Source of the DNA: Raillietiella orientalis
Lineage: Eukaryota
Assembly (NCBI GenBank): GCA_036172245.1
Contig: JAYWIR010000032.1
Coordinates: forward strand, 1,550,001 to 1,614,000
Direction: 5' to 3'
DNA: 64,000 nucleotides
Both the position numbers and the translations under genes were made by a program. This document shows, in pieces, positions 1-25,967 of this stretch (the stretch's first letter is position 1; every line of letters begins with the position of its first letter). The notes under the pieces are model-generated. The model did no database searches, had not been told where the DNA came from, and saw only the letters and a program-made list of their open reading frames with translations.

Positions 1-204
1 CGCAAGAGAGCCACACTCGCAGGGAAATGTTCGCTTGTCATGCGAACAGCGGATTGAGTGTTGCCGCGAACGTCATGGGACTGACTGACCATCTGAGGCA
101 GCAAACAAAAACACCTGCGAGCGTTCAGCATATAACCCACACGTCCCGTACATCCGGCCGAACACCGATTCCTGAAACGCGTCTTCGACTGGTTCAGCAT
201 CGAG

Positions 205-1686: not shown

Positions 1687-4600
1687 CAGAAGCTGCGGCT
1701 CTTCAAGTCAAGAGATGAAGGGAGATCATGTAGCACCGTTTCGAATATGTGAAAGAGTGCTGACAATCAATGAAAATGCAATCCTATATATTTGGTTTTG
1801 GGGGCGTCACTATTGGAAGGACCCTGGGACGTTTCTCTTGGGGAGTTGATCTCTGAGGGAAGCTGACAAAAAAAAAAAAAGGCAAGAGTTGGCATCAGCT
1901 ATGAGACAGGAAACAGGAGCGGGCCGAGCTGATCAGTTTCAATAACTATGCACGCGGATCTCCGGACGTAGACGACCGTCCCTTGAGAAAACCAAAGGAA
2001 AAGGTCACAGGTATGAGGAATCGCTTGAGAAACCAAATATCTTCCTAAATTCAACTGATGTCACTCCTGCCAGTATCGATTCCGTAGAGAGTTTAGTAGC
2101 ATGAGGGATGAGAGAGAGAACCCACTGACCGTGAGGACTCGTCGTGCGTGGTTATTGGACTCTTTCTTCAGTAGAAAATCTGAAAATCTTGTTTCTGCCT
2201 GATCAGAGCCTCCTCCATGGCTGCCGTGGTAGACTGGGTTACTTTCGTTCTGATTCCTGGATGCAAGGGGAAAAAAATTTTTTTCTTTCGCACTCACAGA
2301 GAAGACCGGCAATGTGACCAGCGTTTTCTCATTGCTGATGGAGCATATTCGACCTCTCTCATCCATGAGTGCATGTTTGAGATGACGCGGTGGTTCCGAC
2401 TGAAGGACCGGAAGACATGTATGCCAGTTCGTTTATCTGGGTTTCCAAGACCACTTTGCACATCTCAACGCATGCTGCTGAAAGAATGTCGGCTGAGGTT
2501 CACAAAAGCAGGCGTTCGCGCGTTGCTCATCCGTTTGCACGTGACCTCATGTCGTGTTCACCCTGTCCTCGCCATGTCTAAAGCAGCAACCATGAGAGAA
2601 TAGAGGAATCCTTGGTCGATGAAACGTGGCTGCTCACTGAGAGAACATGAGGTAGAAAATAGCTCGCGATGCAGCAATACCGTCAGTGTTTGGCCACACA
2701 GTGCCATCATGAGTCATCTCGAAAGCTGTCCCAACGCGTATTCGATCGAGCTCGCTAATGCTTGCCTCAACTCACCGTCTTCAGCATGAGTGCGGGCATC
2801 CCAACAGCTACATTTGGGGGGCAATCTAAAAGGTTCCCATGGAAGCGGAACTCTGTTTTGTTATGATCCACTGCGAAGACAACCACATGTTGTATCGAAC
2901 CCCCGGTCCATGTTTCAAAGTCCGCACTGTCTCGTGTTCGCGCTCGCAGTTTTGCGATGCGCAACTCGAAGGTCACGACAACCCGTCCAACTGCCAGTGG
3001 ACCGCCCCACAGGTCCATGTTTCGCGCGCAACGTTCCTCACCGAAAGAGTCCAAGTCCTCTTGGACCGTTGACACACGTGCGACGCTGGAGAAGCATGCC
3101 GATCCTTTGGAGGTGACCCCCAGGGAGCAGCAGTGCACGAATGTTTCTGCGGTACCAGGAGCAGCTGCTGCAGCGCTTAGCTGATGCGACCTCGGTATGG
3201 AATCTTACCGTGTCCCCATCCTGCTAACCTTTCCTAGTCTCTTCGCAGTTCCGCCTTGCAGCTCGAGTCGGGGAAGGAACTGTTTTTCACCAACCTTTCA
3301 TGGATTCGGTCATCTATAGGCCTGGAGGCGGGTAAAATGGAAAACAAGCCGATGGTTTGTTACTGCCCAGCAGGGAAGACGTCTTCCGGTGATCTGTTAA
3401 ACCTGAAAGACATACAGAATCGTTTTTTTTTTTCCACAGTGTTACCGATGAAACCTTCCTGTAAGCAGTTTGTTGACTCCATCCCACAGTTTGTTGTCTG
3501 GTCACTCCAGAGCGTTTATTCGAAAGAAATAAACAATCAATCTGGAGACACAGTTCCCAGAAAGGAAAGAAAGCAAAAGATAGGGCAGTACGAGGAAACG
3601 GTTTCAAGCATCGCAGGTCGATCCCCTGAGGCAGTGCGAAACGAGAGGGGAGGGGACAATAAATGAATGAACAAAAGGAGGAAAGGAACGGCGGTCTTTG
3701 GCATTCTTCTCTTCTTCGTTGCTCAGAACAGGCACAGAATGCCAATCATCTCCGACTGGACTCCTTCCTCCAGGTGAGCCGTCCACACGTGGACCGCTGC
3801 TCCCGAGACTCCAGCAACTGGCGGGCTGAGACGATGGTGCACATCGTCGCGATTCCGGCGCCTGAGGAGAGTCCATCCGTGAGAAAAGAATGGCCGCAGA
3901 CAGTATTTAGCTTCCTCGAATCCTGGGAAAGCGTGCCGTCTCCCAGCGAGAATTCCCCAATCATAGAGAGCAAAGTGGCAAGCGAGCTCGAAGGATGGAG
4001 ACTCCTTCACGTTATACACGCCAATAGGCGCTTCCTCAGGAACGTCGCGCCTCGGTGGGCTTCCCTGTGCAAAAGCGACATCCACGACCTTCGTACATGC
4101 ATCAAGGGTGCAGAAGACGGAGTCATCTGTCAGTTTATACTCTCCATCGGGATTTCTTATGCTCGCGGCATTCTTCCTATTCACCTGACCACGAGAGTGA
4201 CTCGACCGACGTCTGCAATTTCTTTGCTTCTCTGATGCTTCTTCCCTCCTCAGTCCTGACCTTTTGTTCCTTTGTACATCTTGAGGATGTGAGCCCGCTA
4301 CAGGATGTGGTTTACTTGCTCACCGTAGGGATTAGGATTTCGGACCCCAACGGCGTCCAATTTCCACTCCGTCGTCTGATGGTGGACCATCCCAGGGAAG
4401 TGAAGATCATCCGCATCGTCAGGGTGCGCAAGGCACGCCGGCTTCTTCCGTTGTGCTGCCTGCCGTGAACCCCGGAGAGATGCAGGCCACCCACACCGAC
4501 CTCCTGCTGGCGACGACGCACGTCTTCCCAAGCTGGCGAGGGATGCAAATTGCGTGACCATCCGCAGCTCATCCTGCGGCGCTTCCGCGGCCCCCAGGGG

Positions 4601-5219
4601 GTGAAGGAGCGCTCACAACAAACCGAAGGCAGAGTCGGAGCGGGAGCGATTCCTACAGAGGCAGCAGTACGTGGTGCCATCGGCTTCCTCGAGAAAGTGA
4701 GCGCGCAGCTTCAATCGCGCTCCGCAGGCTGTCACCTCAGTGTTCGGAGGCGGGGGATCCCGCTTCGTCATGATCGGGAGGAGCTGAGCACTTGCAGATG
4801 AGGTTACGTCGCTGCGCGCGTGATGACGTACGGCCGAACCAGATCATCCGGTGACTTTGAATAAACCTAGGAGCCTCGCTGGAAAGTTATCCACGGCCGA
4901 CAGATGTGTCTGCATAGGTAAGCAGCATGGCGGTTGCGCCACGCTGCGTACTAAGGTTAAAGGTCACCGCTGTCTGCCAAGCCAAATCGTGAAAATTGCG
5001 CAGCTGCATTCGTGTCAGCTCTGTGCAGATGAACGAACACTTCGTGGGCCGCGGAACCGAGGGATTTCTCTGCAGCCTCCTCATCCGAGGGCCCGGAGAT
5101 ATTCCGTGAATGATGCCAGCCAGTGGCTTTCCAGGCTGCGGCTTACGGACCTGCGGCAGGTGATCTTTTCCATGAGCAGCTCTGGGAAGCTTCCGCGCAA
5201 CTCCGGCTGAGAGCAATAA

Positions 5220-6145
5220 GCCACAGTCGTATTTGGTAGCCCCTAGGAGAGACAACGGAGGTTCATAGGGACAAAAAGTCCCGGAGGGACCCGGGGAAGA
5301 GGACTGTGGTGGTGTGCTTTAGGTCGCATTCCACCGAAATCAGTAGCACAAGTAGTGTGCTGTGATCCACGAGCGTCAGTGTGTCCGCGCCTCAGCTGCC
5401 TTGCCTGCATCTGGTTCCGAATGTCTTTCTTTTCAACAGTTTCACAGTTCCGAATTGGAACGCGCTCCCGTAATCGATGTTTCCAGTGTCTCAGTCGAAC
5501 GTCGGTGCGTCGGTGCAACCAGCGCGCGAACCTTGTTTCCGGGGAAACTGCCTCCCCGAACTGTGGCCGGTGCGGAGAAGCGGAAACGCTCCCGCATCTG
5601 CTCCTCGACTGCGGTGTCCTCCAAGAACTGTGGCGGATGCTGGCTTCAGCGCTCCGGCACCGAGGAAACACCGCACGGATTTTAATGAGCCGCTTTTTCA
5701 CGCCGGGCTGCCTGTGGTTAGCTGCGGTGGTTGCGACGATCTGCTGCATCCGCGCCATCGTCAAGGCCGCCGAAAATTGGAGTCGCTGGTCATTTACCGA
5801 GACGTCACCGGAATTGCCGACGAGAACATGACGTCCGCTGCCACGTGGCCTCATCTTCCAGAAGACGTCAGGGAGGAAATCTCCGGCATCCAACATCGGT
5901 TCTGAAACCAACGAACTGCGCAGACCAAAGACCCCAGTCTCCAACTCCCTCCATATCATTCATACGTTTTGATATATTTTCTTGTGGCCTTCTCCCTACC
6001 GTTCCGGACGTCCCGAATTACCGACCAGCGTGTCGGTGTTCCCCTCTTTCGTTCTTCTGGAAACCCCTGGTCTGGGGACTTTTTTTCTGGGATAGTTTCC
6101 AATAAACGCCCTGGCGCATCCGGGTGGGAAAACGTAGGTGCCGTC
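5220..6145 (+). mobile_element. Decayed L1/Tx1-like non-LTR retrotransposon 3' fragment (zf-RVT-like motif plus 3' UTR), in left arm
   Basis: CGRCGEAETLPHLLLDCGVLQELW from 5562 (CxxC...HxxxxC of the L1/Tx1 ORF2 C-terminus), a pyrimidine-rich UTR, and AATAAACGCC at 6101. Boundaries approximate. Confidence 0.7.
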
Positions 6146-8314
6146 AACACCATGAAACCGTGCGTGACTTGCCGACTCACCAGAAAAAACCACCAAGGAT
6201 GGAAAGTGCTGGACAAATGAGCGTAGAGGAGTTATTCTACCGAAGAAATACGGACGAAAGGAATGTCGACAAAACCGAAAGGTCATTTTCACACACGGAC
6301 CGCATCCTCTGAAGTCATTGGATCCATTCTGCAGAAGAACAGAGTTACTTCGGAAGCTGTTGCGGATGGAATTCTCCTTTACAAAATCCAGGGTCAACTA
6401 ACGCATGCAGGAAACTGGTTTCGAGGCAGAATGGACCATCGCCTGCAAAGGGGATGGACGCGTTAAACCCTGTGGGTAAGGGTGGCGGGAAACAGGTGAA
6501 GAGCACCATCTAGCTGATGGGTAAAGGGGAAGGCGTACCACGACTCCTAGAAAAGAAAGTCATCCCTGCGAAATGAAAACTGCTGGAGAGAATGCATGCG
6601 TCACTTCCAGCATATCGCCAAACACTGAAAATGAGAAATGGGCATCAGCAAAAGATGAAGTCGGGGATCTTGTTGAAGAAGCGCTGAGGAGCCGTCGTCA
6701 GATTTCCATCCGGAAGTTTCTTCGATGTAAAAAAATAAACAGTCAAGCTGGGAAGAAGGCATTTCCTGGATGCGGCCTCTCTCGTCCGCATACGCTGCCA
6801 TCCAGCGCACTCTACGTCTCCGCCCCTTTTTTATGCAGACGAGTGTAGGTCGCCTTTCCCCGATCACGCCAACGACTATTCAGCGCCCCTATAGACGCAA
6901 TCTGAGACGTGCGACGAGACCAATCCCTGACGGGCAACCTATGCAATGCACGGCTGATGCCCAAGCAGTTATCAGACATTCCGCCGATGCGCAGGCCGAG
7001 ATTTCTGAAAGTCCGGAACGGGAGGAGGAGACAAGGAATAAATAAATCAAAGTTGAGGGTGGAGACGCATGTCTTTGGTGCATTTCCTTACTCCTTGAAA
7101 AACCGGAAAGACTCCATAACGAGTGAGAGGAAGTAACTTTACAAACAGGAAGAAAGGGAAGAAACACACGGAAACAAAACAAAGGAAAGGTGAGGGCAAG
7201 GGATTTCATCTGCCACCGACGTTTTGTGCAAGCTGACATCCTGGATGTAGCGAAACAAGATCGGAGAGCTGGAAAAGAAGTGGAAAGTTCAAAGGTCACA
7301 GCGCATACGCGATTTTCGTCCAGCTTGAGCTCTCGTTTTGTTTTCCGCTGTGAGGAATTCTTCCGGCAGACGGTCGGGTCAAGCGGACCCCACCGCAAGT
7401 GCAGCTCGCACCCTCTGTGTCTGCGTGATTTTCGTCTCATTTACGGAAGAACCATCGATGCATCCTGACGATATCCAGTTCCTGGAAGCTGCTGTTTGGG
7501 TAGCAACGAACAATCTTCCGAACGACATGGCATCCTCCTCAGAAAGAACACACGTGATCTGGTGACTTCCGTTTCATGAAGTGTGCATCCCGACGATGAT
7601 AATGTGTGCATCATGATGTGTCCCGTGCTGTTTCCGAAGCTGCACATTTCATCCCGTGATCTCCGTTACAGTTTGGAAGCTGCTGCTGTAACGCAAATGA
7701 TTCGTACACCCGCAAGCAGACGCAATGTTTCTGGCACGTGCGCGGCTGTGGAAATGTTGTGCTGGTTAGCACACGAGGAAAAACACATCTCGTGACTTGC
7801 AGGACGATTGCATTCTGGAAATTCCCCCTCTGGCGCTTCCGTGATGCAGATGAGCTAAAATGTTCTTGTTGCTGAGTGCGTTGAACATTCTTCGCAGGAC
7901 GCGATCCTGATGGTCCCTCAGATCCCACGGAAAGGCTTCTTTACAGACTTTTAAAACTGCGGGCATTTGGCAAGAAGGCGGTCATCGAACAGGTTGTGCT
8001 GGTATCCAGGAACGGCGGAACTTCCGAAAAATTCCCATTTTCTTCCGGTACGGCGCGACGGAGGAAAAGTGACCCTGGAGTTACGTTTCCTCCCAAGATG
8101 AAGAGATCCGCGAATAGAGCCATCTCCACCATCAAGCACCAGCGAACAAACTGAACTGAGAATGGCCAGCGCTTCCCTCCCCGGCGCAATCCCTTGGGCA
8201 ACCTTTCCACGCACCCGGAGACCCCCTTCGAAACGGTCTTTTTAGAAATCTCAGTTTCCCGACCTGCATCTCGGACGAGCGTGGAGGAGGCAGCATCCAT
8301 AACTGCACCTAGGA

Positions 8315-8460
8315 TAGGACAAGTGTGCCCAAAGATGATTGCGCATTCCAGCAGCCGCCCTACTGCAACGACCGTGGAGAACATCGGTATTTGCGATGGC
8401 GACCGGAATCCAGTTGCTCAGGCGGCGCCCGTCTTTCCCCATCAGGGTAGCAGCTGGACT
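8315..8460 (-). mobile_element. Decayed LINE reverse transcriptase fragment (mirror copy ~21415-21560, + strand)
   Basis: TLMGKDGRRLSNWIPVAIANTD resembles the LIxKxG...NWRPIxLxNxD motif at the start of LINE RT domains. Confidence 0.55.
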
Positions 8461-11400
8461 CTGTCTGACCTGAAGGATGCAGCAGCATCTATCGATGCAC
8501 CGTGGACCCCGTTCTGCCTCAAGGAGATTGCCAAACTTCGAGCGCAGTTTGTCCGCTCCTCCCACTGCCCTCCGGAGGCGGCGCCAGTCTCGCTGTTCGG
8601 TCATCAAGACGACGAGAACATGCCCCTGTCAGTCTGCGCACGGTCGCCTCGAACAGCACTGGTCAGTATGCGCCCTTGTCGATACCGCTTCTTCTTACGG
8701 GCCACCTCTCGGAGGGACTGCTTGGCTGCATCTCTGACAGCGACACCGCGAGTTGTTGGGCGCTTCAAGACACTGTCCATGATGAAGGTGGCAGCTTCAA
8801 CGGATCGCTAGAGTTATCCGCTTCTTTCAGTGCCGCAAAGGTACTCGTTGGAAGCCATTGCGAGCAGGTGCAACACAACCGCTTCCGTCTTTCCCATTTC
8901 CCTTCGACCTGTTTCCAGTCACGTTCGGGATGCGTTCCCAGCATCGAGAGTCGTCGAAGGCTAAAAAAGAAGAAGGTTCGGATCGCAACCAACATCTGAC
9001 AGAGGCGTCGGTAGGATTCGCGCTTTCTGTATTATGCATCGAGCTGTGCTGAAAACTCCGATCCCGAGCGGTTTTCTCAAATATCTGTTCTCCCCAAACA
9101 CTGAGAACTTCGCCATTGCTCCCATGTCAACCTAAAGGTTAAAGCTCGTATGACCTCGGGTCTCCTTTCCGCAGTGGCATAATCCGGAGCGAACGAAATT
9201 GCCTTTCGGCGCGTCGCACGTGCTTCGGCGACTTCGTGTTCTTGATGCTGCATTGCAACTGGAAGAAAACCTCTCTGTAGGCGGAAAACACGCGTGTTCA
9301 GGGACGCTGCCACTCCTGATGTCTCACCCCAGGGACTCAAGCCTTGCAGCCAGCTTCTCGAATTCCCTCCAGAAGTTCGGGGGCTGCTCTCTATCTTTGA
9401 GTTTAGTTCCAAACTCTCCTCAAAGTGGAGAAGATTGTCCATCCTGGATGGAGACATTGCATGCAAGGAGCGCATCCAGCTGCTGACAAGCGAGGGTGAA
9501 GATGACCTGAAGTGTTCGATTTGCGGGAAAACGAAGCGCATTTCGAAGCTGCTTCTTAACTGTCAGTTTCCGCTGAACCAACCCCATCGCATTGCCAAAA
9601 GGCCTCTTCGAGCGCGATGTACGGCCACCAGATGAGCGCCTGCAAGCTCTTTGCCGCCTGAGCGTTATCATTTCTTGCCGCATTCGAGGCTGCGCAGAAT
9701 AAAGAGGACAGAGTAAACGCCATCCGCGGGGATGAAATCGCTCGTGACGATCGCCGAAAAATGGCTCCACCATGGAGACGAACGCTCTGAACGGCTGATA
9801 TCCCAGACGAGGACGAGGACATTGAACAGTGACTAACCATTCCATCTCCCTCCAAGAGAAACTTTTCCCGCCTTTCGTTTTTGTTCTTTGCGGTTGATGG
9901 TTTTGGGTTCTTCCCTTCCTTGTCGTTGCCGGAACCGAATTCGCCCATGTGCGTGCCGGCAACACGGCAGGTTCTATGCTGATCTCCCCAGAAGATGGTC
10001 GGAGTTCTTTCACTAAAAATCTATGTTGGATCCGTTTGTAAGAATTGCTCCGACGAATACGTGTGAAGAAGTTCCAACGGCGAGCAACGCACTCGTCCTT
10101 CAGAGTTCAGCAGATTCGCTGCATCGGATTGCCGAGATTGTGTCTCCACTGAGCGGCCTCTCACAAGGCTGCTTGCTGAAGAAAGAGAGAACTTCTAGGA
10201 AGGCTTCTCTGCGCGCTTCGCCTTGGGAATGACCTGCAGGAGATCTTTGAGATCTCCCGCATTTGGGCGATGTTGAGGACCGCTCAAATGGGAGAAGCAC
10301 GGAATCTTCAAGCCGAACCCGGTCCCTTCCTTTGTTTCTGAAACACTCCAAAACCTAGGTTGGGATCGGTTCATGGGCACACGAATGGTTGATGAAGCAT
10401 TCTCCAAATTTGCGTCTCCCGGTGCCAGCAGCGAGGAACCAGACCCGGACACCATCCTCGGTTGCTCCGACAAGATGAATTGTCTTTGCCCTCGTCGAAC
10501 CGCGACTGAACCGAAAAGGTCAGCACGAGGCCTGCCATGGGGATCAGCAGTGACTGCTTGTGCAACCGCGAAGGTCTTGGGTTGCTGGCGCAGCGCCAGC
10601 AGACCCAAGACCTTCGCGGACAGTGCAAGCAAACTAAGCAGGGACCCCTTCAACTCCCTTCCAAGTTGAACTTCGCAGTTCTACGATAGCAACGACGATT
10701 CCGCTGACAGCCATGCTCCTGACAATCTGGCTGGGCATAGCCTCCGGCAATTCGAACGTGGAAGCGACGAGCAGCCGCGCACCCCGCAGCCACCCATTAC
10801 TCCGGCATGCTTCCGGGTGCGCAAGGGCGAACTTCGTCCCACAAAAAGATGCGCGTAATGCGTATTCAAAGGGCAGGACGAAGATCATCATCACGTGCAG
10901 CTCACTGAGATGCTTGGGGGTTGCGCGAGGGCAGATTCGGTAGCAAGGAATCCCCTTCGCTCCTTTACTCTTTGCAGCCCGCTACAAAAGAGACACGCGG
11001 AAGCTGATTCCGATAGAGAGATGCCCGAAATCTGCCAAGCCACCTCCGTTTGACAAGGAGCATGAGGAGCGGTCCTTCGGCGAGCATCCACGATGCCACC
11101 GGGTTTTCCAGTGACCGCTCCAGTCGTCAGCTTCAACCCAGATTTTTGCCCCGAAGATCCCAGCGAAAGGACAGGGCTCGAGCGCGACCCTGCGAACGTG
11201 CGGAGGGGTGGATGGATCTTCCGTCGCTGCAGCAAACGCAGGTGGTGGCCGAGGAGCACTCAGCTATCGGATCAGTCGCACCGGGTTGCCACGGCGCGTA
11301 CCTACTCGGGGCGCGTCCGCCCTCCGAGCACAGGAAAAGTAGACAGCAGCGCTCCACTCGAGAGTTGGCAGACGCTGGAGCCCTCCGCTGCCGAGCCAGT

Positions 11401-14293: not shown

Positions 14294-17200
14294 ATGGTTG
14301 ATGCCGGTGTGAGCAGGAGACCTGGTGGTATCGACGAAGAGGATGCACGTGAAGAGCCGGAGATTTCTTCGAAAAGTGTGTGTCTGTTCGTCGACGACAG
14401 CTTTCGCCATGCTTTGGCATCACTCCATGAGGCCGTCGTCACTGGAGACGAGGAGACGGTGGAGACATTTCTCAAGGAAGGAACGGAGTTGTCCTCTCGT
14501 GACGACTACGGTAGCACCCCGCTGCACCTGGCTGCAGAGCAGATGAACGATCACATCGCTGTATTGCTTCTACGCGGCGGTGCAGACGCTGATGTTTTGG
14601 ATGCGAGGGGGATGGCACCTCTGCATATCGCTACCGAGAATGGATCTTTAAAAATGGCGACAGAACTCTTAAGGCATGGCGCCAACGTGAACTGTGTAAT
14701 GTTCACGCAGAGCAGTACGTCTCTCGATCTCGTTCCGAAAACTGAGGAACAAGTGACTCGAAAACCTGGTCAACCTTCTGTCAAGCCTGTATGCCCTACC
14801 ACAGCAGTAGCTCATTGGTATATTCCCGATGAAGGGGAGCAGTCGCTTCCAAAACTCCCTGTTGAATACAGGGTCGTCGTTTCCTGTCGGTACATGAATG
14901 CGACGACTGCGCTTCACATGGCTTGCTGCAAAGGTCACGAGAAACTGGTAAAGCTCCTCCTGGATTACGACGCTGATGTGAATGCGAAGGACGAGGTTGG
15001 CACAACCTGCCTCATGTTGGCCACTGATTTCGAGAGGACTCATATAATGAAACTGCTCTTGGATTCCAACGCTGATGTGAACGCCAAGGCCCAGTTCAAG
15101 ACCACTGCGCTCCACGTGGCATCGGAGAAAGCGAACGAAACGATGGCGAAGCTGCTTTTGGATTACGGGGCGGATATAAATGCACAGAACAATGGAGGCA
15201 TCATCCCTCTCCATGTAGCTGCGAAACACGAAAACTTTGAAGTGATAAAGCTTCTTCTAGATCATCGTGCCGACGTGAATCATAAGGACCAAAGAGGAAT
15301 CACTGCGCTCCAGATTGCATCCGCAGGATCGGATACCACAATCGTGAAGCTACTTCTGGAGTACAGGGCGGATGTGAACACGCAGGACCATTGTAGAAGA
15401 ACATGTCTCCAGGCTGCTTGCGTTAACCAAAGGGCGTCGACGGTGAAGTTGCTTTTAGATCACGAAGCCGATGTCAACGCGAAGGGGAAGGACGGTGCGA
15501 CTGCGCTTCACATCGCTTCCAGGAAATCCAACAAGCTGATAGTAAAGCTCCTCTTGGATGTCGGAGCGGATGTGCATGCTAAAGATGACAACGGAGAAAC
15601 CCCTCTCCAAAAAGCCCTGCTGTTCGATAGAGTGGAAGCTACGGAAATTCTGCTGGACCACAATGCCGACGTCAACACAGGGAGAAAGGACGGCAAAACG
15701 GCGCTCCACATCGCATGCACGAAGTCAAGAGAAGAGACAGTCAGGCTTCTTTTGGCATCTCGAGCAGAGGTGAACGCAGCAGACGGAAATGGAGAGACGC
15801 CACTTCATGCGGCCGCATCCGCCGGCAGAGTGCAAATAGCAAAGCTTCTGTTGGATTGCGGCGCTGACGTGAACCACCAGGCGCACAACGGGGCGACTGC
15901 CCTGCACTTTGCGTCCTCGCCAGGAAGCTATGAGTTGGTGAGACTTCTCTTGGACCGTAATGCAAACATCAGCGCGGAAATGGGAGACGGAAAAACCGCG
16001 ATCCACATCGCTTCCGGAGGGTTTAACCTCGATGTGGTCAGGGTTCTCCTGGAGAGCTTCGCCGATGTGAATGCCCTAGACCTGAGTGGAGCGACTCCTC
16101 TCCATGTCGCTTCGCGGAGAGGAAACGAACAGATGGTGAAGCTGCTTGCGTACAACTGGGCAGATATCAATGCGCAGGACGGCGATGGGAGAACTCCCAT
16201 TCAGGATGCTGTGACAAACGGGAACTTTGGGATAGTGGAGATTTTTCTGAATCACCATGCCAACGTCAACCATAAAGATCTAAGAGGAATCACTGCGCTC
16301 CACATTGCATCCGCGAAATCGGATGTTACAATCGTGAAGCTACTTCTGAATTACATGGCGAATGTGAACGCAGAGGACTATGATGGAAGAACCTGTCTTC
16401 AGGTAGCTTGCTTGAACCAGAGGTTGTGGACGGTGAAGACGCTCTTGGATCACAACGCTGAAGTAAACGCGAGGAACAAGCATGGCATGACCGCTCTTCA
16501 CGTCGCTTGCAGGCAATCGAGCTATGAAATAGTGAAGCTTCTTTTGGAATACTACGCAGATGCGGATGCGAGAGATGACAACGGAGAAACCGCTCTAATA
16601 AAAGTTGCAGCTTCCTCTAGAACCGACATAGCGAAGCTTCTGTTGGAGCACAACGTGTATGTCAACGCAAGGACGAATAACGGAATAACGGCGCTGCATA
16701 TGGCGTCCACGAAGTCCACCCAAGAAATCGTGAAGATTCTCTTGGATTATGGAGCGGATGTAAATGTTCAAGATGTGGATGGAACAACCCCACTCATGTA
16801 CTCTATATCCGCCGGTGAAGATAAGATAACGGAACTTCTGTTGGAAAGAGGCGCCGAACCCAACGAGACGAAGAAGGATGGCACGACGGCGCTACACATC
16901 GCGGCATGGAAATCCAACTATACAGTGGTGTGGCTTCTGTTAAAGTACAACACCGACGTCAACGCGAAGGCAGAAACCGGGCAGACTGCACTGCACCTTG
17001 CTTCCATAATATCAAACGATCAAATAGCAATGCTCCTCTTGGATAACAACGCCGACGTCAACGCGAGGAGGAACGACGGGACGACCGCTCTCCACATTGC
17101 GGCCACCAAGTCGAACACGGAATCGGTAAAGGTTCTTTTGAAATACCATGCCGACGTGAACGTGAGGACAAGGAACGGATGGACAGCGATGCACATAGCG

Positions 17201-18058
17201 TCGAGGAAAGCGAACTTCGAGATCGTTAAGCTCCTTTTGGAATGCGGAGCGGACGTGAATGCTCAGGATGATGAAGAGACAACCCCTCTTCATGAGGCTA
17301 CATACGTCTGCTGCGGAGAGGTGGTCCAACTTCTGCTGGCAGCCAGAGCCGACGTCAACGCAAGCAAAAACGACGGGGCGACCGCTCTCCACATTGCGTC
17401 CTGGAAGTCGAGCACCGACATCGTAAAGCTTCTCCTGGAAAACGGCGCTGACACCAGCGCGAAGACCCAAAGTGGACAGACTCCGCTGTACGTTGCATCA
17501 GCTCTGCCACACGATATGATCATGAAGCTCCTTTTGTGTTACGACGCAGACGCCAACGTGAAAAAAAACGATGGAGCGACTCCCCTCCACATCGCGTCCG
17601 TGAAATCAAATGCAGCCGCGGTGGAGCTTCTCTTGGAATTCCGAGCAGACGTGGATGCGAGAGACAACCTGGGGAAGACCCCGCTTCACGAGTCCGCCGC
17701 CGCAGGCACCATCGACGTGGGGAGAATCCTGCTGCAATTCCACGCCGACGTAAACGCGAGGAGGCGAGACGGAGCCACTGCTCTACACGCGGCCACCGCG
17801 AAATCGCACTTGGATTTCGTGAAGCTCCTTCTGGACCACCGCGCCTATGTCGATGCGCGGACCAAAACCCTAACGACTCCACTCCACCTTGCGTGCACGC
17901 ATCCAAACGAAGAGGTGGTCAAGCTCCTCTTGAGGCACAACGCCGATGTGCATTCCAGGAAAGTGGATGGAACAAGTTGCTTGGACTTGGCCCTGATGAG
18001 TGGAAATGCAGAGGTGATAAGCATAATCCAGACACACATGGCATACCAACAACAGTGA
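14294..18058 (+). CDS. Intronless ankyrin-repeat protein, 1254 aa, ~35 ANK repeats with a 64-aa insert after repeat 3
   Basis: Uninterrupted 3765-nt ORF. I count 35 copies of the 33-aa G-x-T-[PA]-L-H-x-A...LL-x-x-x-A-D-V-N consensus. AATAAA at 18221-18226. Confidence 0.95.
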   Translation: MVDAGVSRRPGGIDEEDAREEPEISSKSVCLFVDDSFRHALASLHEAVVTGDEETVETFLKEGTELSSRDDYGSTPLHLAAEQMNDHIAVLLLRGGADADVLDARGMAPLHIATENGSLKMATELLRHGANVNCVMFTQSSTSLDLVPKTEEQVTRKPGQPSVKPVCPTTAVAHWYIPDEGEQSLPKLPVEYRVVVSCRYMNATTALHMACCKGHEKLVKLLLDYDADVNAKDEVGTTCLMLATDFERTHIMKLLLDSNADVNAKAQFKTTALHVASEKANETMAKLLLDYGADINAQNNGGIIPLHVAAKHENFEVIKLLLDHRADVNHKDQRGITALQIASAGSDTTIVKLLLEYRADVNTQDHCRRTCLQAACVNQRASTVKLLLDHEADVNAKGKDGATALHIASRKSNKLIVKLLLDVGADVHAKDDNGETPLQKALLFDRVEATEILLDHNADVNTGRKDGKTALHIACTKSREETVRLLLASRAEVNAADGNGETPLHAAASAGRVQIAKLLLDCGADVNHQAHNGATALHFASSPGSYELVRLLLDRNANISAEMGDGKTAIHIASGGFNLDVVRVLLESFADVNALDLSGATPLHVASRRGNEQMVKLLAYNWADINAQDGDGRTPIQDAVTNGNFGIVEIFLNHHANVNHKDLRGITALHIASAKSDVTIVKLLLNYMANVNAEDYDGRTCLQVACLNQRLWTVKTLLDHNAEVNARNKHGMTALHVACRQSSYEIVKLLLEYYADADARDDNGETALIKVAASSRTDIAKLLLEHNVYVNARTNNGITALHMASTKSTQEIVKILLDYGADVNVQDVDGTTPLMYSISAGEDKITELLLERGAEPNETKKDGTTALHIAAWKSNYTVVWLLLKYNTDVNAKAETGQTALHLASIISNDQIAMLLLDNNADVNARRNDGTTALHIAATKSNTESVKVLLKYHADVNVRTRNGWTAMHIASRKANFEIVKLLLECGADVNAQDDEETTPLHEATYVCCGEVVQLLLAARADVNASKNDGATALHIASWKSSTDIVKLLLENGADTSAKTQSGQTPLYVASALPHDMIMKLLLCYDADANVKKNDGATPLHIASVKSNAAAVELLLEFRADVDARDNLGKTPLHESAAAGTIDVGRILLQFHADVNARRRDGATALHAATAKSHLDFVKLLLDHRAYVDARTKTLTTPLHLACTHPNEEVVKLLLRHNADVHSRKVDGTSCLDLALMSGNAEVISIIQTHMAYQQQ

Positions 18059-18597
18059 TGCGGAGTACTGCCTTTCCTCCTCCTTCCCGGGGATCCAATC
18101 GTGAAATCCTAAACACTCTTAAAATGCAAAAAGCAGCACAGTTGTCGCTGCGCTCACAGGGACCATGAATCTGGACGAACCTAACGAAGAATTCGGTCAA
18201 TCTATCACAACTGAAGAACAAATAAATCACCAGAAAACAAGAAATGCGAAGTTGAATTCGTAGAACGTGGTCCTTTTTACTTCAAAAGTCCCCATGCCTC
18301 ATGGATAATGGGGACTTCCGTTAAAATCTTGGGGATATTACTCTTTTCGAATTTCTATCACTGATGGTCACCTCCCCGTTGACAGCGAAGTGTCAAAAGC
18401 ATGGTGAGCTCCGAAGATCAGGAGAGGACGGTTAAGCCTGATAGCTTTGGCACCAGTCTGTCTGCAGCCTACTCGTGTCTGGCTTGTGCTGTGGTCGTCT
18501 GCCGTACTCATCTGGTTGCGGTCGAGGTGGGGTCCGTGTTTTCCCCGATGACCACCTCTGTTCGAGGGTGGACGACGAGGGCAAAGACAATTCATCT

Positions 18598-21500
18598 TGA
18601 TCCGATAGCTGAGTGCTCCTCGGCCACCACCTGCGTTTGCTGCAGCGACGGAAGATCCATCCACCCCTCCGCACGTTCGCAGGGTCGCGCTCGAGCCCTG
18701 TCCTTTCGCTGGGATCTTCGGGGCAAAAATCTGGGTTGAAGCTGACGACTGGAGCGGTCACTGGAAAACCCGGTGGCATCGTGGATGCTCGCCGAAGGAC
18801 CGCTCCTCATGCTCCTTGTCAAACGGAGGTGGCTTGGCAGATTTCGGGCATCTCTCTATCGGAATCAGCTTCCGCGTGTCTCTTTTGTAGCGGGCTGCAA
18901 AGAGTAAAGGAGCGAAGGGGATTCCTTGCTACCGAATCTGCCCTCGCGCAACCCCCAAGCATCTCAGTGAGCTGCACGTGATGATGATCTTCGTCCTGCC
19001 CTTTGAATACGCATTACGCGCATCTTTGTGGGATCTAGTGCCCGCTCCTTGCGCACCCGGAAGCATGCCGAGTAATGGGTGGCTGCGGTGCGCGGCTGCT
19101 CGGGTCGCTCTGGCGTTCGAATTGCCGGAGGCTATGCCCAGCCAGATTGTCAGGAGCATGGCTGTCAGCGGAATCGTCGCTGCTATCGTAGAACTGCGAA
19201 GTTCAACTGGGAAGGGAGTTGAAGTCCTCGCTTAGTTTGTTTCTTTGCACTGTCCGCGAGTCTTGGGTTCTGCTGGCGCTGCCCCATCAACCCAAGACCT
19301 TCGCGGTTGCACAAGCAGTCACTGCTGATCCCCATGGCAGGCCTCGTGCTGACCTTTTCGGTTCAGTCGCGGTTCGACGAGGGCAAAGACAATTCATCTT
19401 GTCGGAGCAACCGAGGATGGTGTCCGGGTCTGGTTCCTCGCTGCTGGCACCGGGAGACGCAAATTTGGAGAATGCTTCATCAACCATTCGTGTGCCCATG
19501 AACCGATCCCAACCTAGGTTTTGGAGTGTTTCAGAAACAAAGGAAGGGACCGGGTTCGGCTTGAAGATTCCGTGCTTCTCCCATTTGAGCGGTCCTCAAC
19601 ATCGCCCAAATGCGGGAGATCTCAAAGATCTCCTGCAGGTCATTCCCAAGGCGAAGCGCGCAGAGAAGCCTTCCTAGAAGTTCTCTCTTTCTTCAGCAAG
19701 CAGCCTTGTGAGAGGCCGCTCAGTGGAGACACAATCTCGGCAATCCGATGCAGCGAATCTGCTGAACTCTGAAGGACGAGTGTGTTGCTCGCCGTTGAAC
19801 TTCTTTCACACACGTATTCGTCGGAGCAATTCTTACAAACGGATCCAACATAGATTTTAAGTGAAAGAACTCCGACCATCTTCTGGGGAGATCAGCAAGA
19901 ATCCTGCCGTGTTGCCAGCACGCACATGGGCGAATCTCGGTTCCGGCAACGACAAGGAAGGGAAGAACCCAAAACCATCAACCGCAAAGAACAAAAACGA
20001 AAGGCGGGAAAAGTTTCTCTTGGAGGGAGATGGAATGGTTAGTCACTGTTCAATGTCCTCGTCCTCGTCTGGGATATCAGCCGTTCAGAGCGTTCGTCTC
20101 CATGGTGGAGCCATTTTTCGGCGATCGTCACGAGCGATTTCATCCCCGCGGATGGCGTTTACTCTGTCCTCTTTATTCTGCGCAGCCTCGAATGCGGCAA
20201 GAAATGATAACGCTCAGGCGGCAAAGAGCTTGCAGGCGCTCATCTGGTGGCCGTACATCGCGCTCGAAGAGGCCTTTTGGCAATGCGATGGGGTTGGTTC
20301 AGCGGAAACTGACAGTTAAGAAGCAGCTTCGAAATGCGCTTCGTTTTCCCGCAAATCGAACACTTCAGGTCATCTTCACCCTCGCTTGTCAGCAGCTGGA
20401 TGCGCTCCTTGCATGCAATGTCTCCATCCAGGATGGACAATCTTCTCCACTTTGAGGAGAGTTTGGAACTAAACTCAAAGATAGAGAGCAGCCCCCGAAC
20501 TTCTGGAGGGAATTCGAGAAGCTGGCTGCAAGGCTTGAGTCCCTGGGGTGAGACATCAGGAGTGGCAGCGTCCCTGAACACGCGTGTTTTCCGCCTACAG
20601 AGAGGTTTTCTTCCAGTTGCAATGCAGCATCAAGAACACGAAGTCGCCGAAGCACGTGCGACGCGCCGAAAGGCAATTTCGTTCGCTCCGGATTATGCCA
20701 CTGCGGAAAGGAGACCCGAGGTCATACGAGCTTTAACCTTTAGGTTGACATGGGAGCAATGGCGAAGTTCTCAGTGTTTGGGGAGAACAGATATTTGAGA
20801 AAACCGCTCGGGATCGGAGTTTTCAGCACAGCTCGATGCATAATACAGAAAGCGCGAATCCTACCGACGCCTCTGTCAGATGTTGGTTGCGATCCGAACC
20901 TTCTTCTTTTTTAGCCTTCGACGACTCTCGATGCTGGGAACGCATCCCGAACGTGACTGGAAACAGGTCGAAGGGAAATGGGAAAGACGGAAGCGGTTGT
21001 GTTGCACCTGCTCGCAATGGCTTCCAACGAGTACCTTTGCGGCACTGAAAGAAGCGGATAACTCTAGCGATCCGTTGAAGCTGCCACCTTCATCATGGAC
21101 AGTGTCTTGAAGCGCCCAACAACTCGCGGTGTCGCTGTCAGAGATGCAGCCAAGCAGTCCCTCCGAGAGGTGGCCCGTAAGAAGAAGCGGTATCGACAAG
21201 GGCGCATACTGACCAGTGCTGTTCGAGGCGACCGTGCGCAGACTGACAGGGGCATGTTCTCGTCGTCTTGATGACCGAACAGCGAGACTGGCGCCGCCTC
21301 CGGAGGGCAGTGGGAGGAGCGGACAAACTGCGCTCGAAGTTTGGCAATCTCCTTGAGGCAGAACGGGGTCCACGGTGCATCGATAGATGCTGCTGCATCC
21401 TTCAGGTCAGACAGAGTCCAGCTGCTACCCTGATGGGGAAAGACGGGCGCCGCCTGAGCAACTGGATTCCGGTCGCCATCGCAAATACCGATGTTCTCCA

Positions 21501-24500
21501 CGGTCGTTGCAGTAGGGCGGCTGCTGGAATGCGCAATCATCTTTGGGCACACTTGTCCTATCCTAGGTGCAGTTATGGATGCTGCCTCCTCCACGCTCGT
21601 CCGAGATGCAGGTCGGGAAACTGAGATTTCTAAAAAGACCGTTTCGAAGGGGGTCTCCGGGTGCGTGGAAAGGTTGCCCAAGGGATTGCGCCGGGGAGGG
21701 AAGCGCTGGCCATTCTCAGTTCAGTTTGTTCGCTGGTGCTTGATGGTGGAGATGGCTCTATTCGCGGATCTCTTCATCTTGGGAGGAAACGTAACTCCAG
21801 GGTCACTTTTCCTCCGTCGCGCCGTACCGGAAGAAAATGGGAATTTTTCGGAAGTTCCGCCGTTCCTGGATACCAGCACAACCTGTTCGATGACCGCCTT
21901 CTTGCCAAATGCCCGCAGTTTTAAAAGTCTGTAAAGAAGCCTTTCCGTGGGATCTGAGGGACCATCAGGATCGCGTCCTGCGAAGAATGTTCAACGCACT
22001 CAGCAACAAGAACATTTTAGCTCATCTGCATCACGGAAGCGCCAGAGGGGGAATTTCCAGAATGCAATCGTCCTGCAAGTCACGAGATGTGTTTTTCCTC
22101 GTGTGCTAACCAGCACAACATTTCCACAGCCGCGCACGTGCCAGAAACATTGCGTCTGCTTGCGGGTGTACGAATCATTTGCGTTACAGCAGCAGCTTCC
22201 AAACTGTAACGGAGATCACGGGATGAAATGTGCAGCTTCGGAAACAGCACGGGACACATCATGATGCACACATTATCATCGTCGGGATGCACACTTCATG
22301 AAACGGAAGTCACCAGATCACGTGTGTTCTTTCTGAGGAGGATGCCATGTCGTTCGGAAGATTGTTCGTTGCTACCCAAACAGCAGCTTCCAGGAACTGG
22401 ATATCGTCAGGATGCATCGATGGTTCTTCCGTAAATGAGACGAAAATCACGCAGACACAGAGGGTGCGAGCTGCACTTGCGGTGGGGTCCGCTTGACCCG
22501 ACCGTCTGCCGGAAGAATTCCTCACAGCGGAAAACAAAACGAGAGCTCAAGCTGGACGAAAATCGCGTATGCGCTGTGACCTTTGAACTTTCCACTTCTT
22601 TTCCAGCTCTCCGATCTTGTTTCGCTACATCCAGGATGTCAGCTTGCACAAAACGTCGGTGGCAGATGAAATCCCTTGCCCTCACCTTTCCTTTGTTTTG
22701 TTTCCGTGTGTTTCTTCCCTTTCTTCCTGTTTGTAAAGTTACTTCCTCTCACTCGTTATGGAGTCTTTCCGGTTTTTCAAGGAGTAAGGAAATGCACCAA
22801 AGACATGCGTCTCCACCCTCAACTTTGATTTATTTATTCCTTGTCTCCTCCTCCCGTTCCGGACTTTCAGAAATCTCGGCCTGCGCATCGGCGGAATGTC
22901 TGATAACTGCTTGGGCATCAGCCGTGCATTGCATAGGTTGCCCGTCAGGGATTGGTCTCGTCGCACGTCTCAGATTGCGTCTATAGGGGCGCTGAATAGT
23001 CGTTGGCGTGATCGGGGAAAGGCGACCTACACTCGTCTGCATAAAAAAGGGGCGGAGACGTAGAGTGCGCTGGATGGCAGCGTATGCGGACGAGAGAGGC
23101 CGCATCCAGGAAATGCCTTCTTCCCAGCTTGACTGTTTATTTTTTTACATCGAAGAAACTTCCGGATGGAAATCTGACGACGGCTCCTCAGCGCTTCTTC
23201 AACAAGATCCCCGACTTCATCTTTTGCTGATGCCCATTTCTCATTTTCAGTGTTTGGCGATATGCTGGAAGTGACGCATGCATTCTCTCCAGCAGTTTTC
23301 ATTTCGCAGGGATGACTTTCTTTTCTAGGAGTCGTGGTACGCCTTCCCCTTTACCCATCAGCTAGATGGTGCTCTTCACCTGTTTCCCGCCACCCTTACC
23401 CACAGGGTTTAACGCGTCCATCCCCTTTGCAGGCGATGGTCCATTCTGCCTCGAAACCAGTTTCCTGCATGCGTTAGTTGACCCTGGATTTTGTAAAGGA
23501 GAATTCCATCCGCAACAGCTTCCGAAGTAACTCTGTTCTTCTGCAGAATGGATCCAATGACTTCAGAGGATGCGGTCCGTGTGTGAAAATGACCTTTCGG
23601 TTTTGTCGACATTCCTTTCGTCCGTATTTCTTCGGTAGAATAACTCCTCTACGCTCATTTGTCCAGCACTTTCCATCCTTGGTGGTTTTTTCTGGTGAGT
23701 CGGCAAGTCACGCACGGTTTCATGGTGTTGACGGCACCTACGTTTTCCCACCCGGATGCGCCAGGGCGTTTATTGGAAACTATCCCAGAAAAAAAGTCCC
23801 CAGACCAGGGGTTTCCAGAAGAACGAAAGAGGGGAACACCGACACGCTGGTCGGTAATTCGGGACGTCCGGAACGGTAGGGAGAAGGCCACAAGAAAATA
23901 TATCAAAACGTATGAATGATATGGAGGGAGTTGGAGACTGGGGTCTTTGGTCTGCGCAGTTCGTTGGTTTCAGAACCGATGTTGGATGCCGGAGATTTCC
24001 TCCCTGACGTCTTCTGGAAGATGAGGCCACGTGGCAGCGGACGTCATGTTCTCGTCGGCGGCAATTCCGGTGACGTCTCGGTAAATGACCAGCGACTCCA
24101 ATTTTCGGCGGCCTTGACGATGGCGCGGATGCAGCAGATCGTCGCAACCACCGCAGCTAACCACAGGCAGCCCGGCGTGAAAAAGCGGCTCATTAAAATC
24201 CGTGCGGTGTTTTCTCGGTGCCGGAGCGCTGAAGCCAGCATCCGCCACAGTTCTTGGAGGACACCGCAGTCGAGGAGCAGATGCGGGAGCGTTTCCGCTT
24301 CTCCGCACCGGCCACAGTTCGGGGAGGCAGTTTCCCCGGAAACAAGGTTCGCGCGCTGGTTGCACCGACGCACCGACGTTCGACTGAGACACTGGAAACA
24401 TCGATTACGGGAGCGCGTTCCAATTCGGAACTGTGAAACTGTTGAAAAGAAAGACATTCGGAACCAGATGCAGGCAAGGCAGCTGAGGCGCGGACACACT

Positions 24501-25967
24501 GACGCTCGTGGATCACAGCACACTACTTGTGCTACTGATTTCGGTGGAATGCGACCTAAAGCACACCACCACAGTCCTCTTCCCCGGGTCCCTCCGGGAC
24601 TTTTTGTCCCTATGAACCTCCGTTGTCTCTCCTAGGGGCTACCAAATACGACTGTGGCTTATTGCTCTCAGCCGGAGTTGCGCGGAAGCTTCCCAGAGCT
24701 GCTCATGGAAAAGATCACCTGCCGCAGGTCCGTAAGCCGCAGCCTGGAAAGCCACTGGCTGGCATCATTCACGGAATATCTCCGGGCCCTCGGATGAGGA
24801 GGCTGCAGAGAAATCCCTCGGTTCCGCGGCCCACGAAGTGTTCGTTCATCTGCACAGAGCTGACACGAATGCAGCTGCGCAATTTTCACGATTTGGCTTG
24901 GCAGACAGCGGTGACCTTTAACCTTAGTACGCAGCGTGGCGCAACCGCCATGCTGCTTACCTATGCAGACACATCTGTCGGCCGTGGATAACTTTCCAGC
25001 GAGGCTCCTAGGTTTATTCAAAGTCACCGGATGATCTGGTTCGGCCGTACGTCATCACGCGCGCAGCGACGTAACCTCATCTGCAAGTGCTCAGCTCCTC
25101 CCGATCATGACGAAGCGGGATCCCCCGCCTCCGAACACTGAGGTGACAGCCTGCGGAGCGCGATTGAAGCTGCGCGCTCACTTTCTCGAGGACGCCGATG
25201 GCACCACGTACTGCTGCCTCTGTAGGAATCGCTCCCGCTCCGACTCTGCCTTCGGTTTGTTGTGAGCGCTCCTTCACCCCCTGGGGGCCGCGGAAGCGCC
25301 GCAGGATGAGCTGCGGATGGTCACGCAATTCTTGCATCCCCTCGCCAGCTTGGGAAGACGTGCGTCGTCGCCAGCAGGGAGGTCGGTGTGGGTGGCCTGC
25401 ATCTCTCCGGGTTCACGGCAGGCAGCAATAAACGGAAGAAGCCGGCGTGCCTTGCGCACCCTGACGATGCGGATGATCTTCACTTCGGGATGGTCCACCA
25501 TCAGACGACGGAGTGGAAATTGGACGCCGTTGGGGTCCGAAATCCTAATCCCTACGGTGAGCAAGTAAACCACATCCTGTAGCGGGCTCACATCCTCAAG
25601 ATGTACAAAGGAACAAAAGGTCAGGACTGAGGAGGGAAGAAGCATCAGAGAAGCAAAGAAATTGCAGACGTCGGTCGAGTCACTCTCGTGGTCAGGTGAA
25701 TAGGAAGAATGCCGCGAGCATAAGAAATCCCGATGGAGAGTATAAACTGACAGATGACTCCGTCTTCTGCACCCTTGATGCATGTACGAAGGTCGTGGAT
25801 GTCGCTTTTGTACAGGGAAGCCCACCGAGGCGCGACGTTCCTGAGGAAGCGCCTATTGGCGTGTATAACGTGAAGGAGTCTCCATCCTTCGAGCTCGCTT
25901 GCCACTTTGCTCTCTATGATTGGGGAATTCTCGCTGGGAGACGGCACGCTTTCCCAGGATTCGAGGA
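18598..25967 (-). repeat. Right arm of a ~7.4-kb inverted repeat
   Basis: Begins TGATCCGATAGCTG (RC of 11261-11274) and ends ...CCCAGGATTCGAGGA (RC of sequence starting at 3913). Confidence 0.97.
23730..24655 (-). mobile_element. Mirror copy of the L1/Tx1-like 3' fragment, in right arm
   Basis: RC of 5220-6145; the same zf-RVT-like peptide appears in ORF 24044..24523. Confidence 0.7.

What the first reader, a model, noticed from the sequence alone, without database searches (positions are those of the whole stretch)
3913..25967. 22-kb palindrome-like cassette: 7.4-kb inverted arms enclosing an intact ankyrin gene
Seen: arms of ~7362 and ~7370 bp are near-perfect reverse complements around a 7323-bp spacer. 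The arms are mosaics of old, frameshifted LINE pieces in both orientations, so their identity is much younger than their content or is being actively maintained. I found no intact gene, transposase or target-site duplication at the arms; the only recognisable intact gene is the ANK ORF in the spacer. Inference: a recent inverted duplication that could let the spacer flip by arm-to-arm recombination, undergo gene conversion as in sex-chromosome palindromes, yield long dsRNA, or serve as an amplification or mobilisation unit for the ANK gene. A chimera from whole-genome amplification or a misassembly is a real alternative.
Basis: partly seen in the sequence, partly recalled or inferred. Interest (0 to 1): 0.8.

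Follow-up and report, generated by a model that had tools for sequence, protein, structure and literature searches.

The report
Recent inverted duplication around ankyrin gene
A 7.4-kb stretch of mostly junk DNA has recently been copied back-to-front on the far side of an ankyrin-repeat gene in an arthropod genome; it is most likely an ordinary DNA-repair accident of a kind that keeps reshuffling this gene family, and a sequencing artefact is not yet ruled out.

Summary
The inverted repeat is there as described (3913-11274 / 18598-25967, 99.15%, spacer 7,323 bp, 1,294-codon ankyrin frame). It is not a symmetrical cassette. The left arm is the new copy: its outer end cuts a LINE fragment. The inner 780 bp of the arm, plus 2.8 kb of spacer, also lie 20 kb upstream, in front of a 62%-identical ankyrin paralog. 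In the right arm that 780-bp block looks like an earlier insertion with a 27-bp duplication. Best reading: a replication/repair template switch copied the right arm backwards, rejoined through the 780-bp homology and lost the old left flank. Most arm differences are error-like patches in the right arm, so true identity is probably about 99.9%. Similar young inverted duplications recur at other ankyrin loci (8 of 45 loci in inverted pairs; 0 of 143 kinase matches), but mostly with the gene in the arms, not enclosed. There is no target-site duplication or transposase, no second copy of the unit and no evidence of flipping. No reads bridge a junction, so chimera or misassembly keeps about 25%. 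New member of a known kind; modest interest.

The parts
3913..11274 (+). Left arm (7,362 bp); inferred to be the new copy
   Evidence: its outer end cuts a LINE fragment
18598..25967 (-). Right arm (7,370 bp); inferred to be the template
   Evidence: continuity with the right flank is inferred, not shown (inconclusive)
11275..18597 (.). Spacer (7,323 bp)
14174..18058 (+). Uninterrupted ankyrin-repeat frame, 1,294 codons, first Met 14294, 31 Ank stretches, no PRANC-like tail
10496..11274 (+). Block B, inner 780 bp of the left arm; third copy about 20 kb upstream (G000:C32:1540089-1540831)
18598..19376 (-). Block B in the right arm, flanked on both sides by the 27-bp motif (insertion with duplicated target, 2-bp overlaps at each end)
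   Evidence: the insertion reading is inference
11275..14082 (+). Block C, 2.8 kb upstream of the ankyrin frame, 5 substitutions from the block upstream of the paralog (G000:C32:1540832-1543645)
10471..10497 (+). 27-bp motif, copy at the A/B boundary of the left arm (mirror at 19375-19401)
18573..18599 (-). Extra copy of the 27-bp motif at the right inner junction
3479..3910 (-). 3' fragment of a LINE family that stops at the left outer junction while other copies run on
   Evidence: (E 2.9e-57)
5511..6150 (+). LINE 3' piece inside the arm (mirror 23725-24367), 75-79% like dispersed genomic copies
19028..19936 (-). Error-like patches private to the right arm (left-arm coordinates 9938-10089 and 10585-10843)
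4394..4547 (+). Third error-like patch (six indel events); arm of origin not determined
18255..18408 (+). 154-bp block downstream of the ankyrin frame, 90% like the block downstream of the paralog

Best explanation
A real, recent, local inverted segmental duplication made by template switching during replication or break repair (break-induced-replication type), with no dedicated function of the arms. Step 1 (inferred): a 780-bp block B from upstream of the ankyrin genes was inserted back-to-front just downstream of the gene, duplicating 27 bp and creating a small inverted repeat around it. Step 2 (junction shown, mechanism inferred): synthesis coming from the left broke off inside a LINE fragment at 3912 and jumped, with little or no homology, to the far end of what is now the right arm. 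It copied 7.4 kb backwards. Step 3 (inferred): it returned to the forward strand through the 780-bp homology and went on through block C and the ankyrin gene. The old DNA between the left flank and the gene was lost. The gene is a bystander in the spacer, but it now shares about 3.6 kb of upstream DNA with its 62%-identical tandem paralog. The same mutational process is reshuffling the other long-frame ankyrin genes of this genome.
For: The left outer junction is new: the flanking LINE fragment ends at 3906-3910, the earliest end among 35 copies scored, and its continuation is not at any end of the spacer or right flank. Over block B the left arm has 0 private columns, the right 46 and the upstream copy 44, of 781; left and right share the alleles at the isolated sites where the upstream copy differs. 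The junctions I could resolve show 2-bp overlaps with a 27-bp duplication or, at a C43 locus, a 1-nt insert without overlap; 1-9 bp overlaps, blunt joins and 1-2 bp inserts are what two-switch BIR products show (PMC11293582, passages). The genome holds inverted pairs at about 94, 96, 98.2, 99.4, 99.8 and 99.9% identity, including pairs 150 and 280 kb apart. They concentrate at ankyrin loci: 8 of 45 loci in same-contig inverted pairs, against 0 of 143 kinase matches and 2 of 150 reverse-transcriptase matches (my counts from the listings; Fisher p 6e-6 and 1e-4). Three blocks picked without regard to content (310 kb) held no inverted repeat of 1 kb or more. Differences between block B+C and its upstream copy are 13 transitions of 14, as expected for mutations in vivo.
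Against: No read or independent contig bridges any junction. The error-like patches show that the assembly is imperfectly supported here. Spacers of the six near palindromes with arms of 0.8 kb or more are 2.7-9.5 kb, within the under-10-kb range of amplification chimeras (PMC9984789, passages). In 5 of 6 cases I could polarise, on only 3 contigs, the new junction is on the left, which could reflect an assembly bias. Isolated differences could be alleles mixed in polishing rather than divergence. Continuity of the right arm with the right flank was not shown. The ankyrin enrichment compares loci with matches, uses only the best candidates of each search, and could reflect hard-to-assemble regions. 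Whether block C came in during this event or earlier is unresolved (B 9/689 against C 5/2807, p 3e-4; C against arms p 0.19).
Confidence: 0.68

Rival explanations
1. An in-vitro chimera (multiple displacement amplification or library ligation) folded back through the 780-bp repeat and was built into the contig.
For: Fold-back geometry with a 7.3-kb loop; several such structures in the assembly with loops under 10 kb; raw-read-like patches; the youngest duplicates are rich in C:G to A:T differences (21 of 46 against 8 of 61 in older pairs, p 3e-4), a possible damage signature; left-side bias 5 of 6. How the DNA was prepared is unknown to me.
Against: Needs a second switch of at least 14.7 kb, and no direct repeat of the spacer (triplication) was seen at any of the near palindromes. 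Reported chimeras peak at 250-300 nt distance with 5-8 nt overlaps and are random (PMC9984789, passages). The new arm is the clean one. The C:G to A:T excess is the same in far pairs (15 of 32 near, 6 of 14 far, p 1.0). Enrichment at ankyrin loci and absence from 310 kb of unselected DNA. One test of amplified HiFi assemblies found one chimeric contig in two assemblies (PMC11660948, passages).
Confidence: 0.17
2. A misassembly that joins two haplotypes of a heterozygous inversion at the 780-bp repeat, so that the arms are alleles, not duplicates.
For: An inversion of gene plus right arm gives the same new junction at 3912/3913; a switch at block B then yields the observed order (inference). 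Identical ankyrin and kinase matches on different contigs (C6/C65, C80/C29, C26/C101) hint at unresolved haplotypes.
Against: A 780-bp repeat is short for an assembly with multi-megabase contigs (contig lengths). No other contig holds the arm, spacer or flanks at high identity. It does not explain the palindromes whose left arm has two new junctions.
Confidence: 0.07
3. A maintained palindrome with a function: the arms convert each other and let the ankyrin gene flip, or change its expression.
For: A 4.35-kb tract without isolated substitutions (p 0.03) and a 2.5-kb one in the neighbouring palindrome (p 0.09); recurrence near ankyrin genes; a shared upstream block between diverged paralogs.
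Against: The gene is in the spacer, so conversion between arms cannot repair it. The arms end at a broken LINE, and in the neighbouring palindrome at a truncated gene copy, as fresh accidents do. No consistent layout among loci. No recombinase gene or shared end motif seen. Palindromes were not a general conversion device in 23 parthenogenetic animal genomes (PMC7953838, passages) nor in a springtail (PMC5490193, passages).
Confidence: 0.06
4. A giant terminal-inverted-repeat or foldback transposon carrying the ankyrin gene.
For: Long inverted ends around a cargo gene.
Against: One copy only; no target duplication; no transposase found in the arm and spacer frames scanned; the two flanks are not the halves of one insertion site.
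Confidence: 0.02

Closest known systems
Two-template-switch (BIR then MMBIR/NHEJ) rearrangements at inverted repeats, such as DUP-TRP/INV-DUP (PMC11293582, passages)
   Same: One switch guided by a pre-existing inverted repeat (there 0.9-11 kb and larger, 98-99.9%), the other with 0-9 bp of homology; the product carries an inverted copy in cis.
   Different: Here there is no triplicated or directly duplicated segment; flanking DNA was lost instead, and the scale is kilobases.
Young adjacent inverted gene duplicates of Caenorhabditis elegans (Katju and Lynch 2003, seen second-hand in PMC4546093, passages)
   Same: Newborn duplicates adjacent and inverted, often partial or chimeric.
   Different: In this window the duplicated segment is repeat debris and the gene sits between the copies.
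Y-chromosome palindromes and palindromes reported in Folsomia candida and Adineta vaga (PMC7953838, PMC5490193, passages)
   Same: Long, near-identical inverted arms around a spacer.
   Different: There the genes lie in the arms and, on the Y, conversion is shown; here the gene is in the spacer, and age or maintenance is not shown.
Inverted chimeras of multiple displacement amplification (PMC9984789, passages)
   Same: Fold-back geometry, distance under 10 kb.
   Different: Overlaps of 2 bp or none rather than 5-8; a second, longer switch is needed; enrichment at one gene family.
ANK-PRANC proteins of arthropods, Rickettsiales and poxviruses (distribution recalled; search listing)
   Same: Several paralogs in this genome are long uninterrupted ankyrin frames with a shared C-terminal tail that scores weakly as PRANC.
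   Different: The enclosed gene and its tandem paralog lack that tail.

Membership tests
Local inverted segmental duplication | Two copies over 1 kb and over 90% identical, inverted, on one chromosome | tested here: met
   7.36 kb, 99.15%
Local inverted segmental duplication | One copy derived, with new junctions | tested here: met
   LINE fragment cut at 3906-3910
Local inverted segmental duplication | Exists in vivo (reads from unamplified DNA across the junctions, twofold depth) | not testable with these tools
   the one run found bridges no junction
DUP-TRP/INV-DUP | First junction inside a pre-existing inverted repeat | tested here: inconclusive
   block B fits this role; that it predates the arms is inferred
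DUP-TRP/INV-DUP | Inverted triplicated segment between duplicated segments | tested here: not met
   no direct repeat of spacer or flanks in 164 kb
Conversion-maintained palindrome (Y type) | Genes duplicated in the arms | tested here: not met
   no long frame in the arms
Conversion-maintained palindrome (Y type) | Arms more alike than their age allows | tested here: inconclusive
   largest-gap test p 0.03; no outgroup genome is held
TIR or foldback transposon | Target-site duplication | tested here: not met
TIR or foldback transposon | Further copies with the same ends, or a transposase | tested here: not met
Invertible (flip-flop) cassette | Both spacer orientations among molecules | not testable with these tools
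   no raw reads available
MDA inverted chimera | Overlap of about 5-8 nt at the switch | tested here: inconclusive
   2 bp at both ends of the B insertion and none at a C43 junction; the overlap at 3912/3913 cannot be measured because the old flank is lost, and about 5 bp is possible
MDA inverted chimera | Random with respect to gene content | tested here: not met
   8 of 45 ankyrin loci against 0 of 143 kinase matches; none of 1 kb or more in 310 kb unselected
ANK-PRANC | C-terminal PRANC/F-box-like domain | tested here: not met
   no PRANC match for the enclosed protein; a profile of 5 paralog tails finds the C29 locus (1.8e-28) but nothing in six frames around this gene or its paralog

The most novel reading that the evidence does not exclude
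This arthropod diversifies a family of about 45 long-frame ankyrin genes through a recurrent, family-biased process: short templated insertions seed inverted repeats, template switches grow them into multi-kilobase palindromes, and upstream regulatory blocks are swapped between diverged paralogs, so that individual genes become flippable or change expression within populations.
Probability: 0.1. Interest if true: 0.7.

Novelty: new member of a known kind. Interest (0 to 1): 0.35.

Why it matters
If real, the locus keeps an unusually readable record of how a kilobase-scale palindrome is born in an invertebrate: a short seed repeat, then outward extension with loss of a flank. It also shows a regulatory chimera between diverged paralogs. 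The genome-wide pattern would make this ankyrin family a natural test bed for birth-and-death evolution by inverted duplication. If artefactual, it warns that gene-family counts and palindrome lists in this assembly are inflated. It does not point to a new mobile element or switch.

Tried and rejected
Public reads: one run was listed, share 0.06. Laid on 11300-27500 it gave 14 records; six pieces of 151-198 nt match without a difference (three in the spacer, three in the arm), none bridges a junction, no joints: uninformative for copy number or reality. Proving that the right arm runs on into the right flank: an endonuclease profile scored both junction frames near zero, a genome search gave only chance matches, Pfam gave nothing on six read-through frames. 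LINE ORF2 proteins from 30 loci did not match the arm. Reconstructed flank-spacer joins found no crossing match at any of 9 repeats. Polarity of the 4394-4547 patch and of the patches in the neighbouring palindrome could not be set. Hairpin strength explains the patches only in part (mean -24.8 against -19.8 kcal/mol, SD 5.3). The ankyrin protein has only generic relatives at 26-35% (Atlas), so its origin was not settled. No Rfam match in 1-30000; no tandem array in the unit. 20 kb around another long ankyrin frame (C27) and 20 kb each on C38 and C10 held no long inverted repeat; further ankyrin loci were not examined at DNA level. Literature searches listed no paper on ankyrin families in inverted duplications in arthropods; subscription journals are not covered and no supplements were read.
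Full report
Setting. The window is G000:C32:1550001-1614000 of a 210-Mb genome in 491 contigs. An ABCF2 exon in the window has its listed best matches in insects and crustaceans at 77-86% identity, so the organism is an arthropod without a close relative in that collection. No related genome is held.

Observation. The inverted repeat is as described: 3913-11274 against 25967-18598, 7,386 columns, 99.147%, 23 mismatches, 21 gap openings. The spacer carries an uninterrupted frame of 1,294 codons at 14174-18058 with 31 ankyrin stretches and no PRANC match. Its relatives in public proteins are generic ankyrin proteins at 26-35%. Arms and spacer are single-copy apart from the pieces described below. 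There is no target-site duplication. The claim that the arms are LINE mosaics is shown only for 5511-6150; the rest gave weak translated matches.

The differences between the arms are of two kinds. Six substitutions and four indel columns are isolated; 15 substitutions and 36 indel columns are clustered, in patches at 4394-4547, 9938-10089 and 10585-10843, with none in 5816-9937. A third copy of the inner 780 bp gives an outgroup: of 781 columns, 0 are private to the left arm, 46 to the right and 44 to the third copy, 35 of the last being one deletion. In the 9938-10089 patch, three other genomic repeats match the left version only. The patches are mostly 1-3-base shifts that nearly cancel in length and degrade a hairpin from 94.5% to 85.7%. 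I read them as sequencing or polishing errors (inference). Nanopore reads lose accuracy after the junction of an inverted duplication (PMC7229812; abstract, introduction and start of methods read); whether this assembly used such reads I do not know. True arm identity is then about 99.9%.

Anatomy. Call A = 3913-10495, B = 10496-11274, C = 11275-14082, K = the ankyrin gene, m = a 27-bp motif. The locus reads flank, A, m, B, C, K, then on the other strand m, B, m, A, and the right flank. About 20 kb upstream lies B, C and a paralog K2 of 892 codons, 62% identical to K with most changes at third positions (190/176/298). C differs from its upstream copy at 5 of 2,807 sites and B at 9 of 689 (p 3e-4), while the coding regions are 76% alike. 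So two old paralogs share a very young 3.6-kb upstream block. In the right arm B sits between two copies of m, with 2-bp overlaps at both ends, the look of a templated insertion at a staggered break (inference).

Which arm is new. The left flank ends in the 3' part of a LINE family. A profile of 9 other copies matches 3479-3910 (E 2.9e-57) and stops there. Among 35 copies scored, this one ends first (model position 237; the others 263-1932); agreement with the family majority is 13-18 of 24 bases before the junction and mostly 8-11 after, with one bin at 14. The continuation is not at any end of the spacer or right flank. LINE copies are often 5'-truncated (general knowledge), but a truncation within a few bases of the arm end is unlikely by chance. 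The left arm is therefore the new copy and the old flank is lost. That the right arm is continuous with its flank follows only by elimination; direct tests were inconclusive.

Mechanism. Shown: the order of blocks, the cut LINE, the 27-bp duplication, the shared upstream block. Inferred: B was first inserted back-to-front downstream of K. Later, synthesis from the left flank jumped to the far end of the right arm, copied A, m and B backwards, and returned to the forward strand through the B homology. This accounts for the arm ending exactly at the end of B and for the left B carrying right-arm alleles. Whether C was already shared with the paralog or was picked up in the same event by a third switch is open; the divergence of C and of the arms do not differ significantly (p 0.19). 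This works like the two-switch break-induced replication proposed for DUP-TRP/INV-DUP, where one junction lies in an inverted repeat and the other has 1-9 bp of homology, a blunt join or a 1-2 bp insert (PMC11293582, passages). It is not a member of that class, because nothing is triplicated.

Context. A second palindrome lies 33-54 kb upstream of the window (arms 8.8 kb, 99.4%, spacer 4.1 kb); its arms carry a DHHC-type frame (named from its motif by recall), cut short in the left copy (551 against 678 codons). Others were found at C54 (arms 7,010 bp, 99.94%), C43 (2,577 bp; 4,339 bp; 887 bp), and as far pairs on C29 (at least 8.7 kb, 99.8%, 150 kb apart) and C73 (8.6 kb, 98.2%, 280 kb apart). 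Several of these loci were chosen because paired ankyrin hits pointed to them, so they are not a random sample. Three blocks chosen blind (C1 100 kb, C12 100 kb, C20 110 kb) held one 665-bp inverted pair and none of 1 kb or more. By my count from the listings, 8 of 45 ankyrin loci with frames of 300 codons or more belong to same-contig inverted pairs confirmed at DNA level, against 0 of 143 kinase matches and 2 of 150 reverse-transcriptase matches judged by identical scores (p 6e-6 and 1e-4). Each search scored only its best candidates (36 of 197, 150 of 492 with 35 matches unlisted, 124 of 443, 150 of 3,358), and ankyrin hits of shorter frame were left out of the count. The layout varies: genes inside the arms, across a junction, or enclosed. 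Of five paralogs scanned at other loci, two have a weak PRANC match below the cut-off; K and K2 lack that tail.

Real or artefact. For real: an age series of duplicates, far pairs that local chimeras do not explain, enrichment at one family, junction overlaps of 0-2 bp, no triplication, and a clean new arm. Amplification chimeras are described as random, mostly a few hundred bases apart, with 5-8 nt overlaps (PMC9984789, passages). Against: no bridging read; noisy patches; near spacers all under 10 kb; new junctions on the left in 5 of 6 polarised cases on 3 contigs; and a C:G to A:T excess in the youngest pairs (21 of 46 against 8 of 61, p 3e-4), though equal in near and far pairs. A haplotype switch at block B across a heterozygous inversion gives the same order and is not excluded. 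I put real at about 0.75 in all and artefact at about 0.25.

Function. Nothing points to a mobile unit. Flipping by recombination between 7-kb arms is possible in principle but untested. Conversion has weak support (p 0.03 here, 0.09 next door with 16 sites entered), and could not protect a gene in the spacer. Surveys of parthenogenetic animals found few palindromes and warn of assembly errors (PMC7953838, passages; PMC5490193, passages). Adjacent inverted duplicates are the commonest newborn class in C. elegans (reported in PMC4546093, passages).

Verdict. This is most likely one product of a known mutational process, in a family that it hits often. The shared upstream block and the family bias are the parts worth following. 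Novelty: new member of a known kind. Interest 0.35.

Noticed in passing
G000:C32:1495620-1504434 / 1508502-1517308 (L009-L002): Second palindrome, arms 8.8 kb, 99.4%, with a DHHC-type frame complete in the right arm and truncated in the left; error-like patches 0.6-1.8 kb from the inner end.
   Followed up: partly
G000:C32:1540089-1546435 (L005): Tandem ankyrin paralog, 892 codons, sharing a 3.6-kb upstream block; its last repeat continues in another frame just before the stop, and a 514-bp piece is 96% like a locus on C38.
   Followed up: partly
window 1-321 with G000:C32:1525869-1526270: Perfect 402-bp inverted pair 24 kb apart, enclosing the paralog.
   Followed up: no
window 58585-59374 and 61428-61741 / 62846-63159: A 790-bp direct duplicate 13.8 kb downstream (99.6% over 774 bp) and a 314-bp inverted pair at 94%. 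Near-identical local duplicates of 600-900 bp recur on C1, C12, C43 and C73.
   Followed up: partly
window 10566-10619 and 26504-26558: Short near-perfect hairpins of 54-55 bp.
   Followed up: no
window 50859-52848 (+) and 40347-40784 (+): ABCF2 exons; a Tc5-type transposase DNA-binding fragment. Frames at 45589-46904 (-) resemble a WD-repeat dynein chain by recall only; no Pfam match for the one scanned.
   Followed up: partly
G000:C43, C73, C29 ankyrin loci (L018, L020, L027, L096, L104): Family of long uninterrupted ankyrin frames with a shared C-terminal tail, weakly PRANC-like in 2 of 5 scanned; origin not tested.
   Followed up: partly
G000:C43:1298139-1300794 and 753543-756198: The right flank of one palindrome is a 5'-truncated copy of an ankyrin gene 545 kb away, joined with a 1-nt insert.
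   Followed up: partly
G000:C53, C71, C114, C30, C189 and contig ends (listing): Long reverse-transcriptase frames in same-strand series about 5-6 kb apart and near contig ends: possible head-to-tail LINE arrays, perhaps telomeric.
   Followed up: no
young duplicates on C32, C54, C43, C29: Differences in pairs over about 99.4% identity are rich in C:G to A:T changes, unlike older pairs: fresh-mutation spectrum or DNA damage.
   Followed up: partly
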